This document shows positions 143 through 36,594 of a stretch of 64,000 bases of DNA, piece by piece. The position numbers and the translations under genes are program-made. Numbering within the stretch: the stretch's first letter is position 1; each line of letters starts with the position of its first letter. The notes beneath the pieces were generated by a model, which worked only from the letters and a program-made list of their open reading frames with translations, searched no databases and had not been told where the DNA came from. The stretch covers positions 1-64,000 of the forward strand of contig JAAILG010001302.1 of the NCBI GenBank assembly GCA_012026655.1. The letters run 5' to 3'. This DNA is from Hydrolagus affinis. Lineage: Eukaryota.

Positions 143-1434
143 AATACACTATACATATACACAAACCCACACACCACACACAGTAACACAGTAATGTCTC
201 TGTTTCAAAATCACTAAAAGTTGTTAATGGGAAAACAAGGCACACTTTCTCTCCATTTTTTCCTACTGTTTCTATCCACATTGATCTAGGGGAAAATACA
301 GAATCAACTTTCCGTATTTTCTCCTAAATTGTACAAAATACATATATTCCCATGATTCTCGGAAGCATCATTCTGATTGGGGGAAAAATATCTCTGGAAT
401 CAGCTCATTTGAACATTACCAATTCTCTCTCCCATGCCATGTTGCAAGCAGACCATATGTACCACATTAAAGAGAACCCTCTGCAGGCTTGAAATTCACA
501 AGTGTTGGACAATAGGTCTCATAGAATTCTAAACAAACTCTCATCTATTTAAAGTGTTAACAACCAGTGCCAGCACAGTGAGTTTGTAGGAGTGTGGTTC
601 CCAGGCTGACAGAATTCATGCTGCTTAGATGGCCTTCAGAATGTTTTGTTTCCCATCAGTGCACAAACAGGAAGTAGAGATGGAAGTTTATGTATCGTAG
701 AAGTTGCTTTCTAATGAGCCGAAATATGTGCAGAAAAAGCACAGACCATTGCCTGCTGCCGATCTCTTAAATTAATTTCCTGCTCAATCACTACTTTATT
801 GCCCATATCGAAGGAACACAAGATAACTATTTGGCAAGCGAAGCATATCACTGGTGATTTTTAATGAATAGGAATAACTTTCAAATTTATTTCAGATAAT
901 TTAATCATTTGTTTTAGCAATAACTTACACAAAAGCAATATATTTACATTAACACAAAAAAGTGTACAGTGCAGTGGTTAGCTTTTCAGTATCCAATTCC
1001 CTTTTTGACCAGGATCACACATTAACCTATACAATGATAATTCTTTCTATAATGTTGAAATACAGGAAACTCTCAATAATTCGTTAGTCCGAGGAAAAAG
1101 AGCTCAGCAGCGAACTATCCAGAGTGGCGATTTAAACATATGTATACACGCAGACAGGATATTGACAGCACAATGACTTGACAACAAGTGACAAGTTAAA
1201 CCAGGATTCAGTTACAAGTTTAATGTTTCTCAAAGAGCTACATAGAGTTTCTGTAAAGAATAGTGACGTTGGGAGAACAGACAGCCAATTTGCACACAAC
1301 AATCTCGCACAAATAGCCATGAAGTGAATGATTAACTTTATCTGGAGAGGACCGTTGGCATCAAGACATCAACAGTCTAATGCCTTAACTTGATTATTTT
1401 TCTGAACTTGATGTTTTCCTGCTGATACAATGCA

Positions 1435-1600
1435 ATAAAATACAAAATTACATCCATATAATGCCCTTTACATGGGATAGATGTCGCAAGGCATTGAACA
1501 GTCAGGGATTTGGACCCGGGCATAAGGAGGGATTGGGTAAGGGAGAGTGGAATATAGGTGGGTGGCTGAAGGGACAGACAAAGTGGAGCATCTTCATTGG
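1435..1600 (-). mobile_element. Degraded L2 3' end
   Basis: aaaattacatccatataatgccctttacatggga..gtcgcaaggcattgaacagtcaggga matches the reverse complement of the L2 tail at 8062, 23840 and 57475. Confidence 0.65.
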
Positions 1601-1799
1601 AGTGCCAGTCTAGACAGTTCAAATACATGATTTGTGGCTTTGAATACATAACCTTCTAACTCAGGGAATGGAATGCTACCAATTGAACTAAACTGACATT
1701 ATTAAGCATTTGAAAGTATGAGAATTTGACTTTTGCAACATGTATTGTCAAACAGCAACCAGTTCATAGTACAAGTGGTACAAGACTGTCTCCTCTCGG

Positions 1800-2237
1800 T
1801 CATGCAGCGTCAAGTAGCTTAGTGGTTAGAGCTCTTGCCTCACAGTGAGACTAATTGGATTTGATTCCAGGCAGGGCAAAATGTTAGACAAGTTTCCTTA
1901 CTCCACGCACCTCTGTTTATCTGTTTCAAGCGCTCTGAGACGCCGTCTGGCATGAAGGGCACTATATAAATCCAAATTGTTGTTGTTGCTGTTATCTAGC
2001 AGTAAGGAGGAACCCAGTTGTTAGTAATTACTGGATTGCTTTTCTGGGGGTAATAATTCCTTCAAAATAACTGTAAATTATTTGGTCACAAATAATCCAC
2101 CATTGTTTGTGGGATACTGCTGAGCTCAATCGACTGCCACGTTTCGCCCACAAAATATAGTCAATTCAATTTACAGTATGTTCTGTGAGGAGCTTTGAGA
2201 CATCTTGAAGACATGATAAGGCGCTATATTAAATGCA
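1800..2237 (+). mobile_element. tRNA-derived SINE, long subfamily, carrying a nested ~70-bp L2-type tail at ~1922-1995
   Basis: tRNA-like head (gtagcttagtggttagagc...tttgattcc), shared body (gtttccttactccac, gtttgtggga..ctgctg), L2-like tail ending aaatgcaaggattattatt. Confidence 0.85.
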
Positions 2238-3608
2238 AGGATTATTATTATTATTATCTCACAACCATTGCAAACTAAATATCAATTTATCACTGGTGTC
2301 CCTGCAATACAGAAACCATTTTGATATTAACCTATACAGGATGACTGGCTTACACCACAAGCCGATTTAAGTACATTTCCAAGTGTTATCACAGAATGAA
2401 TAATGTACATTATAATTGAGTCTCCATTCTGCATTGTCAAAATATAATTCCTGTGAAACCCAGTGTAGGCTTGATGGGTCAAATGGCCTGCTTCAGCATT
2501 GTAATTATCTATAATTTCTTGATTGATATTGTTCTGCAGCTGAAAACCTGACAATGCTGAATAACATTGACAAACATGTTTGATATGTTTTCTTAAAACC
2601 AGCTGCAGAAACCCTAACTGCATTGTATTTTATAAGACTGCAGAGAAATGCCCTAGGAGGCTTAAAGTTGCTTTCCTATTAAATAACCACACAGACCTCA
2701 TGGATGAGTTCCTTATGTGCATGTTTCTTTTTTAATCCAGAGTGTGGGTCATGGCTGTTTATCCAGTTCCCATGGTCATCAGATGAGGGACGTGGGTAAT
2801 TTCAGGCAGGAGTGGTATTCGATGCACTGCACTGAATGAGAACAGCTTATATCTCAAGATCTTTTCCCCACGTCATTCTGAGAGAAAAAGAAAAAACAAC
2901 CGGTTGAGCCATCTATTCCCATTAAAAAGATGCCCAAGTCAAATTAAAAAGCTTTATATATAGACACAGGAAGCAACATGTTCCACAACAAGTTACATTG
3001 TTAATGTCCTAAATGATAGCTTTTTGATTGTAGATAAAGAATTTAAAACATTATGTTTGTGTTATAGTGGGAAAAGGGAAATTAATATTCCCCGCAGACT
3101 CGTGCATCCAGTAAAACGGTCTTTCAACAAACCACACATATGGACTGAAAGCCAAGATACCAAGCACATTACTGGCTTCCAGCACGACACTCTTGAGACT
3201 GTGCCAGCTAAACTATATACATATAAGAATACAACATGTCTGGTCACTTCTGTAATATTCATATTCTCTGAGCTTGGTTCTTGAAAAACAGGCACACACA
3301 TGGAAAACAATATAACTTTTGAAGATTACAATCTGAATGAATGCAAAAAGAACTCTTGAACAGATGCCCTTCTAACGAACTGTTCATAACAATATGGCAA
3401 TCATTTGCACTCTTTTAATCAAGATTTTTAAACTCGTTGTCAATTGATGATTTTTGCATATGCATTTGTGCACTTCGGTATGAAGGTCAATATTATTGGG
3501 GATGGAAGTCTTCCAATCTCCTCAGAGCCATAGTTCCCCCAAACTTACCCTGATGCTGTGACAGCTTCATTTCCTATAGTCTATTATCAAAACTTATCCA
3601 TGTCATAA

Positions 3609-3970
3609 AATAATAATGATAATTCTTGTATTTGATATGGCACCTGAGCACATCTTTGAAACAAAGATGTCTCAAAGTTCTTCACAGAATATACTGCAAA
3701 TTGAATTGACTATATTTTGTGGGCGAAACTTGGCAAACAATTCCGCATAGCAATGTCTCACAAACAGTAGTGGATTATTTTTGACCAAAAATTTTTGAGT
3801 TAGTTTGAAGGAATTATTACCCCCGGAAAAGCAACCACCAATCAATAACAACCAGATTCCTCCTTACTGCTAAGTAAACAGAGGCGTATGGAGGCAGGTC
3901 ACTTACCCAACATTTTGCCCTGCAGGGAATTAAACCCAGGTCTCCAGGCGAGTGCTCTAATCACTGATTA
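3609..3970 (-). mobile_element. tRNA-derived SINE, long subfamily
   Basis: Reverse-complement copy of the 1800-2237 family, from tail to head. Confidence 0.85.
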
Positions 3971-4034
3971 CCCAGTGATTGGGTGTCAACCTTAATTACA
4001 AACGAAAATTTTTGACATGGGCATGAACTCACAA

Positions 4035-4212
4035 CCCGCAAATAGATAAATATTTGGGGAGGACAAGTTTGCGGGGCTATGGGGAGGGAAAAGGAATTGG
4101 AATTGATTTGGACAGCTCTTTTCAAGGAGCCGGCATGGACATGATGGACTGAATGGCCTCCTTCTGTACTTTATAATTGTACTGTATTGAACTGTATGAT
4201 TCGATGATTCTA
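4035..4212 (+). mobile_element. CR1 LINE 3' end
   Basis: gacagctctttcaaggagccggcatggacatgatggactgaatggcctccttctgta...tatgattc, typical CR1/HE1-type 3' UTR and tail repeat. Confidence 0.8.
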
Positions 4213-5039
4213 ATAACCTTGTAACCCAGCACATTAAAGTGCTGCCAGGTTAACATCTGTATTATTCAAACAGGAAAGATTTGTTTGCTTTTAGTTGTGC
4301 AGATCAAATATCAACTTGATTTAAATGGAAGGGAAGAGAGTTATAATCCTCTGCAACACTGCTTTGTCAAAAAACTTTAAATGAAAATTCAGTTGAATAA
4401 TTTCTTTTTTTAATTTCTGTTTCCAGTTTTTCTCTCAAGAATTTTCTTCCATTTACTACAAGAGTGCATTGGGCAAGCATGAGATAAAAATACCAATGCA
4501 GATGTTCTAGCAGTAGTCCCGAACTGAGATGAGCATCACTTGCATCATCGCATGAGATTCAATGGTTTATGTTTCGCTCTAGTTTGTGGTTGGTGGAGGG
4601 ACAAAATATTAGTTATGAAGGTGAAGATGTCTAGGGTTGAAGAATAGATATGGATGAATCTGCCATCATTTTTATTGATAATTAAATATTAATCCTTGTA
4701 TTTGATTTACAATAGCAACAACTTGCATTTATATTTCGCCCCTCATGTAAAGTAATGTCCCAGAGGGCTTAATATAGTGCTTACAGTATCCAAAACATCT
4801 CCTCACTGGTAATAGCTATAGTTGATTTTCATTGCCCAATAGGGAGAAACTATTACATAATAATTCTTGCATTTGATATAGTAACTCATCACATTGTCTA
4901 GAATTCTCAAAGCCATCCACCTGATTTAGTGTGAAGCATAGTTACTTGTAGTAACTATGCATTTGTTGACAAATACCATGATGAACCTTCCACAGGGGAT
5001 GCATTATCTGGGGTAAATTGTGTGTGGCTTATGGCAGGA

Positions 5040-5290
5040 GACAGGTTGAGTGGTCGAGATTAACTTCTCATTGCACGGTTACTTTAGAATGCACCAAGAT
5101 AGTAGAACAAGAAGGCAGGTTTGGAGTTGTTATGGGAAATTTCAACACAGATTCCACAAAGGATTCTTTCCTCAGAGGTTAATTAATGACTTTATTAGGT
5201 TGTCAGGAAGGGTAGTTGAGGCCAGCACATGGTATTTGAAAGCTTGGTGCTGTGGTGGAGGAAGTAGTAGGCTGGGTATTATGGAAGGAT
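5040..5290 (+). mobile_element. Degraded CR1 ORF2 C-terminal fragment
   Basis: ttctttcctcagaggttaattaat...ggtagttgaggc resembles the CR1 'FFSQRVVNxWNxLP..VVEA' region. Confidence 0.6.
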
Positions 5291-5404
5291 GACACAGAGC
5301 CTTCTTACTCCAAACCGAACTTGTGACAAAACTGAATTCAAAATTTGATCCCTTTCAGGGGAATTTCAGGATGTGAGACAATGTACAGTATTACAGTCTA
5401 TGTT

Positions 5405-34351: not shown

Positions 34352-34490
34352 CACAAAACACAAAATATTACAGATGCTGGGAATCTGAAAGAAAAACAAA
34401 AGTTGCTGGGGAAACTCAGCAGGTTAAGCGGCATCCATGGAGAAAGGAAAAAGAGTCAACGTTTCGGGTCTACAACCCTTCGTCAGGACA
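34352..34490 (-). mobile_element. Penelope-type repeat with hammerhead-like core
   Basis: Minus strand CTGACGA-A-GGGT-tgtag-ACCC-GAAA-CGTTGAC followed by ..ctccatggatgccgcttaacctgctgagtttccccagca; same family as 26422. Confidence 0.8.
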
Positions 34491-34649
34491 TAACATTAGC
34501 TGCAAAATTATTTCCCTATTGTTGGAGAAGAGGTGGAATGTAATCTGTAGAAGGAAGGAGACCCAATTTGAATCATGGAGATTTAAGAATAAATGGATTA
34601 TCTATGCAGAATCTTCTCAATAAAATAGATTGAATGGGAAGTCCACAGT

Positions 34650-34950
34650 TCAACAACAACTTGCCTATATATAGCATAATTTATGCTCTGCATCCACCTC
34701 ACCACTGTGCAGCACTCGTGGAGTGCTGCACAGTGGTGAGGTGGATGCAGAGCATGGGAGAAGTGGGAAGTGAAGCAGGGTCAAACAGATAGGTGGGATT
34801 TAAAGATAAATTTAAAGGTTTAAAGATAAAGAGGAGGCAAGGTGGAAAGATTAAGGTGGGAAGTTCCAGGAGTTAAGGGCATAGTGATTGAAGACACAGC
34901 CACCGATGGTGATGTGGAAGGATCAGGGGATACAGCAGGCTTGGGTTAGT
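34650..34950 (-). mobile_element. Old L2 3' end containing a perfect palindrome
   Basis: caacaacaacttgcctatatatagc tail; gaggaggcaaggtgg..ggaagttccag..cagccaccgatggt ORF2 end. Confidence 0.75.
34683..34755. repeat. Perfect inverted repeat, 35-bp arms, 3-nt loop
   Basis: atgctctgcatccacctcaccactgtgcagcactc-gtg-gagtgctgcacagtggtgaggtggatgcagagcat. Confidence 0.97.
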
Positions 34951-36594
34951 TCAGATTGGATTTAAATAGGACACTGCATGCAGGATGATGGACAAACTTT
35001 CCCATTCTTGTTCACGTTTTCTTTTTGTTCTGAGGTTATACTTCTTTCTTTCTCAGGTTGTACACAATACAATCTGCATTTACTTTCACGTCATGGGGAT
35101 GTCTCAACGCGATTGATGCTGGTATTAGGCACCTGAGCTGGGGTGGGAGCTGAAGTGGGTGGGGAGAGAAAGATAGCTGTATGTGCAGCGAAGAATTTTT
35201 TATATTTATTATTTTTGTATGTTCTTCCTGTTCTTATTATTATCTTGGTTTCACATAAAGACATTACTCGTATCCTCATGTCTGTTTACTCAATTCCACC
35301 CCCTCCCCCCACCCCTATTTCTGTCTATTTTAACCTGAAGTCTATGACATATTGTGGAGATAGTTAAACTGGCACCAACTGCCCTTCCCTATCTAAGTGT
35401 GAAAGGCTACAAAAATATAATTTTGTTGTTGTTGTTGGAAGTGACCATTATTTATGTATGAACCCAGATAGTTAATGAGTGTGGCTAAGCTATTTGGCCA
35501 TGGGAAGAATCATACTTCATCCAAATTCTGTACTAGTACAATGTCTGCACACATGTATCTTCTAGTAGTGTGTGTGGGGTGGGGGGGGAGGGAAGTTTCT
35601 GGATAAATCCTGGTGGATTTCCCTTTTCACGTTACCAACCAGATATTTTTAGGAAAGTAACAGCAAGTTAACACCCCTAAATCCATCCAGACAACTAAGT
35701 AGTCTAAGAGCCACGGGTTTCCTCATTGCTCTTCTTTAAACCCTTCGCAAAGCTGCATTCAGGTATTATGAACCCAAAACTGGATAGAATGCCCCAATGT
35801 AGTCTCATTAGTGCTTTGCAGAAAGGCAGTCACACCTCTTTGAACATGCATAGTGCATGACTGGCATTGTTTGACTACTGACACCATGCAATGTGACAAA
35901 TTTCAATGTTGGGTCAACTATCACATCCGGACTCTTTTCCCGTCCCACAATCTTTAATGGTCAACACCTTAGGACATTCTCCTGACATGAAAAGCTGCGC
36001 TATAAATGTAATTTTGTCGTTGTTGTTGTTGATGATGTGTCTTTGCTTTATCATTACAAGCCCTATTTTTAGTGCCAATATGGATTATCTTGCCCTATAT
36101 GGCAGTTATACATTTGTATGCAACAAGCTTCACATAGAATGCAACACTTACAATTATCAAGACAAATGATACTTCTACCTTACAGTTCAAGCACTTGAAA
36201 TGCTTTATACTTGTTTTGTTCCATCTGGTTTGCATTGATATCCTGTTACTGAAACTTTTCATGGTAGTAAAACATATTTTAATAATGGTCCTTTTACAGT
36301 TCGCTATGTATTGCCATTCGTCTCTGGGGAATTGACACAAAAGATTGGTAAATTTAAAACAAAACCAAATCAGTTCAGTGAGAGTATCCTTGAAGTTTCT
36401 ATTCAGTCAATTATCCTGGGGAAGTCTTCCCAATGTGAAAGGTGCTACACAAATACAATTTTGTTTGTTTGTTTCTTATTGTGTTTTGATGGTAACATTC
36501 GTTAAAAAAATTCTTCTGATAAAAACAGCTAATTTTCCAATGAAAATCATATAGTAGTGAGGAAACCTATGTCAGTTCCATATGCTCAATAACA

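What the first reader, a model, noticed from the sequence alone, without database searches (positions are those of the whole stretch)
34683..34755. Perfect 73-bp palindrome inside an otherwise decayed L2 tail
Seen: 35/35 arm identity with a 3-nt loop. The right arm is the L2 sequence (gtgctgcacag..gagcatggg), while the left arm replaces the expected ttcacg..gtccca segment. The host L2 is heavily diverged yet the arms have no mismatch. Inference: a recent fold-back template switch, or ongoing arm-to-arm correction, produced a cruciform-prone, pre-miRNA-sized perfect hairpin de novo. Template switching is a proposed route for miRNA birth.
Basis: partly seen in the sequence, partly recalled or inferred. 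Interest (0 to 1): 0.7.

Follow-up and report, generated by a model that had tools for sequence, protein, structure and literature searches.

The report
Old template-switch palindrome in dead L2
The perfect 73-base palindrome is real and likely arose from one DNA-copying slip inside a dead retrotransposon, but related species carry the same palindrome in broken form and similar ones occur about every 600 kb of this genome, so it is an ordinary mutational scar with no sign of being a microRNA.

Summary
Confirmed: arms 34683-34717 and 34721-34755 are 35/35 complementary around a 3-nt loop. The centre is single-copy. It is not an assembly artefact: contigs of public runs from two related organisms cross the site, and a run with no difference from the window covers the loop and right arm. 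The left arm is a copy of this locus's own right arm, private 1-nt deletion included; 0 of 206 other L2-type tails have an arm over 9 bp. About 30 nt replaced about 10 nt, between 2-nt and 3-4-nt microhomologies, as in a '1-4-3-2' template switch. It is younger than the L2's decay but predates the split from both relatives (1.4-1.8% diverged). There every listed arm change is unpaired, and one relative has lost 15 nt, likely by a second, loop-flipping switch. Perfect arms here need no correction (P about 0.6). Three perfect palindromes with arms of 28 bp or more lay in a 1.79-Mb sample. No miRNA evidence was found. Ordinary member of a known class.

The parts
34649..34959 (-). 5'-truncated, decayed LINE (L2-type, label recalled) 3' tail that hosts the palindrome; its 3' end lies near 34649
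   Evidence: profile match 34649-34915, E=1.4e-31; repeat cover to 34959
34683..34717 (+). left arm, 35 nt; reverse complement of the right arm
34683..34686 (+). outer 3-4 nt of the left arm, likely native L2 letters that served as microhomology at the outer junction
   Evidence: colinear with the paralog majority; the fit of the 10 nt before it is weak (4 of 10 identical, 3 more are transitions); inference
34686..34715 (+). about 30 nt newly written from the opposite strand of the right arm, replacing about 10 native nt (net +20)
   Evidence: 25 nt between anchors in the majority of 60 paralogs against 45 nt here; carries the right arm's private changes
34716..34722 (+). native 2-bp seed and 3-nt loop (loop 34718-34720) at the inner junction
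   Evidence: 34716 T in 22 of 25 and 34717 C in 20 of 25 nearest paralogs; loop letters 34719 T in 11 of 25 and 34720 G in 12 of 25; 34718 differs from the majority
34721..34755 (+). right arm, native L2 tail sequence, with a 1-nt deletion near 34742 shared by 0 of 12 paralogs, 34739 A by 1 of 12 and 34749 A by 2 of 12
34755..34755 (+). outermost pair: T in the window and in runs X7 and X10, G in organisms A and B, A in most paralogs
   Evidence: 16 of 25 paralogs have A
34700..34720 (+). segment altered in organism B: 15 nt shorter; the six letters left of the right arm equal the reverse complement of 34718-34723 (flipped loop)

Best explanation
This is a real, single-copy perfect palindrome whose left arm is a reverse-complement copy of its own right arm, likely written by one short template switch during DNA replication or repair in a dead L2 tail, and likely drifting without function. 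Inferred steps: synthesis left its template near 34685, paired by 3-4 nt with the opposite strand near 34752, copied about 30 nt back to 34723 and rejoined at 34716 through a 2-nt seed beside the 3-nt loop (switch order 1-4-3-2, or its mirror 3-2-1-4). This happened after the L2 copy had gathered private mutations and before the window's species split from organisms A and B. Since then A has gained a pair-breaking change, and B two plus a 15-nt loss that is likely a second, loop-inverting switch. The window's lineage has had no pair-breaking change, which is the most likely outcome at this divergence.
For: The arms share the locus-private deletion and two rare substitutions, so the copy came from this locus and not from a second inserted L2. 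0 of 206 paralogous tails have a perfect arm over 9 bp. Native seed and loop letters remain. Orthologous contigs cross the site in A (34610-34924, depth 33, 4 other letters, no gap) and in B (two runs of different samples, 34462/3-35297, depths 38 and 58). All 6 listed arm changes (2 in A, 4 in B, 34755 counted in both) are not Watson-Crick paired. Variable arm sites are 4 (5 with 34701) in 70 nt against 1.3 expected from 13 of 690 flank sites, so the arms are not conserved. P(no change in 70 nt) is 0.59-0.64 on half the pairwise divergence. In 1.79 Mb sampled from 180 stretches, 3 perfect complex palindromes had arms of 28 bp or more, about 1,900 per genome (95% interval 380-5,400); one is a 35-bp perfect palindrome in LINE-like coding sequence (L055:3701-3782). 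Type 1-4-3-2 makes 31% of high-confidence human-chimp events and switch points can share only 2-3 bases (PMC5453318, passages).
Against: No relative with the pre-switch allele was found (organism C gave no orthologous contig), so the ancestral state is read from paralogs, not from an ortholog. The tree of the three organisms is unrooted, so B's allele could be the older one. The relatives' alleles are read from difference tables of assembled contigs, one contig per run. The flank count leaves out 3-4 differences near contig ends that the table did not list, so the flank rate is understated. Base 34755 is one of only about 2-3 substitutions on the window's branch, and it makes a pair, which pure neutral decay explains only by luck. 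Function was not tested by small-RNA data.
Confidence: 0.8

Rival explanations
1. The palindrome is a recurrent template-switch site: besides the founding event and the loop flip in organism B, arm-to-arm copying on the window's branch wiped out mismatches and added the outermost pair at 34755.
For: 34755 is T here but G in both relatives and A in 16 of 25 paralogs; T completes the 35th pair. The window's branch has only about 2-3 substitutions in about 760 nt, so a pair-making hit at the boundary is unlikely by chance (about 0.003 by my rough, after-the-fact reckoning). B's deletion and its A>T change are one event if read as a loop-inverting switch: 6 of 6 letters match the flipped centre. 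Arm homogenisation and spacer inversion are described (PMC8604942, abstract; PMC10710096, parts 1-2).
Against: It rests on one base. T could be ancestral, with G shared by A and B, and 3 of 25 paralogs have T. Arm changes in A and B stayed uncorrected. Perfect arms are expected without correction (P about 0.6). The sampled palindromes are too few to show an excess of perfect over slightly decayed ones.
Confidence: 0.2
2. Two-step origin: a first switch made a 17-bp-arm hairpin like organism B's allele, and a second switch in the ancestor of the window's species and organism A extended the arm inward and flipped the loop.
For: The two alleles convert into each other by one switch in either direction. 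B has the longest branch and may be the outgroup.
Against: The window's loop orientation is the native-like one. Its letters at 34719 and 34720 occur in 11 and 12 of 25 paralogs; B's flipped letters at 34718-34720 occur in 1, 1 and 0 of 25.
Confidence: 0.1
3. The hairpin is transcribed and processed as a young, L2-derived microRNA.
For: The 35-bp stem is the preferred pri-miRNA length (PMC10954719, passages). The + strand loop reads GUG, and a basal UG fits in one of six cut registers tried per strand. Template switches have founded miRNAs (PMC10710096).
Against: The loop is 3 nt against a preferred 10 nt or more. There is no CNNC in any of 12 registers, and no mismatch for an mGHG motif. None of 20 Rfam miRNA-family matches reaches gathering score (best 59 of 96 bits). 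The arms are not conserved and B lacks 15 nt of one. No host gene was seen: 0 of 150 longest non-repeat frames (of 481) passed a Pfam cut-off. The prior is low: 57 of 6,054 suitable human hairpins are in miRBase (PMC10710096).
Confidence: 0.02
4. Assembly or library artefact, or a fold-back made by the element's reverse transcriptase at insertion.
For: Perfect palindromes can be library or assembly artefacts (general knowledge). No raw DNA read across the whole palindrome was seen.
Against: Orthologous decayed palindromes in A and B. X10's contig 34712-34888 has 0 differences and covers 6 nt of the left arm, the loop and the right arm. X7's contig starts at 34726, the first 31-mer that leaves a perfect 35-nt right arm (k=31 assumed from the tool text and recall). 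Arms as old as the L2 would be mismatch-free with P about 2e-6, and they share post-insertion changes.
Confidence: 0.02

Closest known systems
Short-range template-switch mutation, type 1-4-3-2 / 3-2-1-4 (Loytynoja and Goldman 2017, PMC5453318; passages read)
   Same: A new inverted repeat made from a short inverted copy of adjacent sequence, with only 2-4 nt of identity at the switch points; inferred order of switch points fits.
   Different: Here the ancestral state comes from paralogous repeat copies instead of an orthologous outgroup, and the host appears to be a cartilaginous fish (chimaera-like according to other AI notes).
TSM-born hairpins and miRNAs such as hsa-mir-4713 and mmu-mir-3086 (Monttinen et al. 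2023, PMC10710096; parts 1-3 of 6 read, supplements not seen)
   Same: A hairpin made in one switch, followed in one lineage by a second switch that inverts the loop; pre-miRNA size.
   Different: Those loci have small-RNA support, and most such loci are intronic. This one has no expression evidence, a 3-nt loop, no host gene found, and in organism B the second event also removed 15 nt of an arm.
L2-derived miRNAs mir-28, mir-95, mir-151 (named as LINE-2-derived in PMC4482582; passages read)
   Same: Hairpin built from L2 sequence.
   Different: Those are expressed genes; their origin from two oppositely oriented L2 pieces is recalled, not from a call. Here one L2 copy was mirrored onto itself, and the arms are not conserved.
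IR arm homogenisation and spacer inversion in yeast (Abraham and Hazkani-Covo 2021, PMC8604942; abstract and outline seen)
   Same: Spacer inversion as read in organism B; possible arm extension at 34755.
   Different: Homogenisation is not shown here: the arm changes in both relatives are uncorrected.

Membership tests
Short template-switch mutation (1-4-3-2) | New segment is an exact reverse complement of nearby sequence of the same locus | tested here: met
   35/35; shares the locus-private deletion and substitutions
Short template-switch mutation (1-4-3-2) | Replaces ancestral sequence as a complex substitution plus indel | tested here: met
   25 nt in the paralog majority against 45 nt here; ancestor inferred from paralogs only
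Short template-switch mutation (1-4-3-2) | Little or no identity needed at the switch points; flanks colinear | tested here: met
   2-nt inner seed native in 20-22 of 25 paralogs; the 3-4-nt outer match is a weaker inference
Short template-switch mutation (1-4-3-2) | Orthologous outgroup with the pre-switch allele | tested here: inconclusive
   A and B both have the palindrome; organism C gave no orthologous contig
microRNA gene | Stem of about 35 bp | tested here: met
   criterion from PMC10954719
microRNA gene | Apical loop of 10 nt or more | tested here: not met
   3-nt loop
microRNA gene | Microprocessor motifs (basal UG, apical UGU/GUG, CNNC, mGHG) | tested here: inconclusive
   loop GUG on +; UG in 1 of 6 registers per strand; CNNC in 0 of 12; no mismatch for mGHG (register positions recalled). 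One motif can suffice
microRNA gene | Conserved arms or compensating changes across species | tested here: not met
   all listed arm changes unpaired; 15-nt loss in B; arm variable sites not fewer than flanks
microRNA gene | Match to a known family | tested here: not met
   0 of 21 Rfam matches at gathering score
microRNA gene | Stacked ~22-nt mature and star reads | not testable with these tools
   no small-RNA run was listed
MITE or other mobile palindrome | Multiple copies in the genome | tested here: not met
   centre pattern found once in 1.11 Gb; 0 of 206 tails share it

The most novel reading that the evidence does not exclude
The switch created a lineage-specific proto-miRNA in a cartilaginous fish, kept perfect in this species by arm-to-arm copying, whose small RNA is complementary to the very abundant L2 tails (332 tail matches in about 1.8 Mb) and so targets L2-containing transcripts.
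Probability: 0.02. Interest if true: 0.55.

Novelty: new member of a known kind. Interest (0 to 1): 0.2.

Why it matters
Little on its own. It is a clean, datable example of a known mutation type, with a likely second loop-flipping switch in a sister lineage. The sample suggests some hundreds to thousands of such perfect palindromes in this genome, so the class could be used to measure template-switch birth and decay in a cartilaginous fish. One paper search (template switch, inverted repeat, shark, hairpin, listing only) returned two papers whose titles are on other subjects, which is too narrow to claim absence from print.

Tried and rejected
RNA: no RNA holder listed. One raw single-cell polyA run of organism A was laid (about 27 in 100 of it read): 27 reads, none 95% alike or more, none over the palindrome; this library cannot show small RNA, so the blank is no evidence. 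Outgroup: X11 (organism C) gave only paralogous pieces; X8 covered only 34991-35120. Host gene: a rough splice-site scan gave only weak candidates, the best (35057-35142) resembling another decayed L2 tail. 150 of 481 non-repeat frames were scanned with Pfam, with two sub-threshold hits, so a host intron is neither shown nor excluded. Rfam hits are structure-only. An age spectrum of palindromes (perfect against mismatched) was too small to read, and several mismatched ones belong to a high-copy fold-back repeat. Earlier findings near this place: none; first word search empty. A paper search for chimaera miRNAs gave nothing specific in its listing. Rejected: artefact, fold-back at insertion, MITE, inverted second L2 insertion.

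Full report
Observation. The window holds arms at 34683-34717 and 34721-34755, 35 of 35 complementary, with 3 nt between. Both strands fold into one hairpin, z -11.3 and -12.1, with 0 of 200 shuffles as stable. The centre pattern occurs once in the 1.11-Gb assembly. A DNA search with 34640-34900 found 19 matches: the locus twice and 17 diverged forward-type repeat copies.

Host element. A profile from nine paralogous tails matches 34649-34915 (E=1.4e-31). The element lies on the minus strand, is about 310 nt long and is decayed: 46 of 147 downstream positions differ from a mixed-subfamily majority, and the 25 copies used differ from it by 17-41%. The name L2 is recalled from the tail motif. 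Pfam gave RVT_1 for 1 of 3 LINE-like frames tested elsewhere in the window, which does not separate L2 from related clades.

What was replaced. The majority of 60 other tails has 25 nt between two conserved anchors; the window has 45. The last 5 of these are native-like: 34716 T in 22 of 25 and 34717 C in 20 of 25 nearest copies, with loop letters 34719 T and 34720 G in 11 and 12 of 25. The first 10 fit the native segment weakly (4 identical, 3 transitions). So about 30 nt (34686-34715) replaced about 10 nt, between a 2-nt inner seed and a 3-4-nt outer match. The left arm carries the right arm's 1-nt deletion (shared by 0 of 12 aligned paralogs) and two rare letters (1 and 2 of 12). It was therefore copied from this locus after those changes arose. 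0 of 206 tails spanning the site have a perfect arm over 9 bp. The inferred switch order is 1-4-3-2, the type that makes 31% of high-confidence human-chimp events; that paper finds no evidence for intra-strand fold-back (PMC5453318, passages). The strand route cannot be decided here.

Not an artefact. Organism A has one contig across 34610-34924 (depth 33, 4 other letters, no gap). Organism B has one contig across 34462/3-35297 in each of two runs from different samples (depths 38 and 58). Run X10 has a contig 34712-34888 with 0 differences, covering the loop and the whole right arm. Run X7's contig begins at 34726, which is where a 31-mer graph must break if the right arm is a perfect 35-nt repeat; this is inference, at depth 2.7. 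No raw DNA read across the whole palindrome was seen.

Age and fate. The window differs from A at 11 of 769 nt and from B at 18 of 1,016 nt, so the palindrome is older than both splits. In A the listed arm changes are 34690 and 34755; in B they are 34683, 34701, 34752 and 34755, plus 15 nt left out at 34706. None of these is Watson-Crick paired. The arms have 4 variable sites (5 with 34701) in 70 nt against 1.3 expected from 13 of 690 flank sites, P 0.045 for four or more. The flank count omits 3-4 unlisted differences near contig ends, so I read this only as 'not conserved'. On half the pairwise divergence, no change in 70 nt has probability 0.59-0.64, and 0.35-0.40 on the full divergence. 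The upper 95% bound on divergence since the arms were last made identical is about 4% per site. Arms as old as the L2 would be clean with P about 2e-6.

A likely second switch in B. B's six letters left of the right arm equal the reverse complement of 34718-34723, 6 of 6. The deletion and the A>T change are then one event: a jump to the opposite strand that flips the loop and drops 15 nt. Loop inversion after hairpin birth is described for hsa-mir-4713 and mmu-mir-3086 (PMC10710096). The reverse direction (B-like allele first) is mechanically possible, but B's loop letters occur in 1, 1 and 0 of 25 paralogs, so B is likely derived.

The one hint of correction. 34755 is T in the window, X7 and X10, G in A and B, and A in 16 of 25 paralogs. 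T makes the 35th pair and is one of about 2-3 substitutions on the window's branch. That fits a one-base templated extension, but a single base on an unrooted tree of three cannot show it.

How common. In 180 stretches (1.79 Mb) of the same genome, 3 perfect complex palindromes had arms of 28 bp or more with loops up to 20 nt (35/12, 33/4, 29/5). That scales to about 1,900 per genome (380-5,400), or about one 64-kb window in nine; 1 had 35-bp arms. The stretches came from long contigs and were not drawn at random. L055:3701-3782 is the same kind of event inside LINE-like coding sequence.

miRNA. The stem length is ideal and the + loop reads GUG, but the loop is 3 nt against 10 or more (PMC10954719, passages), CNNC is absent in 12 of 12 registers and basal UG fits 1 of 6 per strand. 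No Rfam match reaches gathering score (0 of 21). No host gene was found in 150 of 481 non-repeat frames. The arms decay freely in relatives. In humans 57 of 6,054 suitable switch-made hairpins are in miRBase (PMC10710096). Expression remains untested.

Verdict. A new member of a known and common class, interest 0.2. Papers: PMC10710096 parts 1-3 of 6; PMC5453318, PMC10954719 and PMC4482582 passages; PMC8604942 abstract and outline; PMC13100816 and PMC8794818 listing only. No supplements were read.

Noticed in passing
window:34352-34493: A very high-copy short repeat (summed contig depth near 2 million), 190 nt upstream of the palindrome. Its minus strand shows the two motifs of a hammerhead-like core, as recalled for Penelope-type elements; Rfam did not hit it and the fold of 34420-34500 is unremarkable (z -0.6). 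My notes called it a SINE without a test.
   Followed up: partly
L061:4007-4206, L159:3417-3527, L069:345-447, L102:3345-3421: The same high-copy repeat often occurs as a tail-to-tail fold-back of 34-91 bp arms.
   Followed up: no
L055:3701-3782: Perfect 35-bp palindrome with a 12-nt loop inside decayed LINE reverse-transcriptase-like sequence; same anatomy as this finding.
   Followed up: partly
L141:866-935 and L153:2870-2932: Perfect palindromes of 33/4 and 29/5 (arm/loop) in A+T-rich sequence.
   Followed up: no
window:22412-22874 and window:12465-12640: Nested inverted repeats (66 nt at 94% and 20 nt at 100%) and a 64-nt inverted repeat at 81%; MITE-like.
   Followed up: no
window:29165-29203: Perfect 16-bp inverted repeat with a 7-nt loop.
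   Followed up: no
window:34997-35001: Organism A has about 16 extra letters here that the window and organism B lack.
   Followed up: no
window:35060-35200: Looks like a second, more decayed L2-type tail behind a pyrimidine tract; it scored best in a rough exon scan but is probably not an exon.
   Followed up: partly
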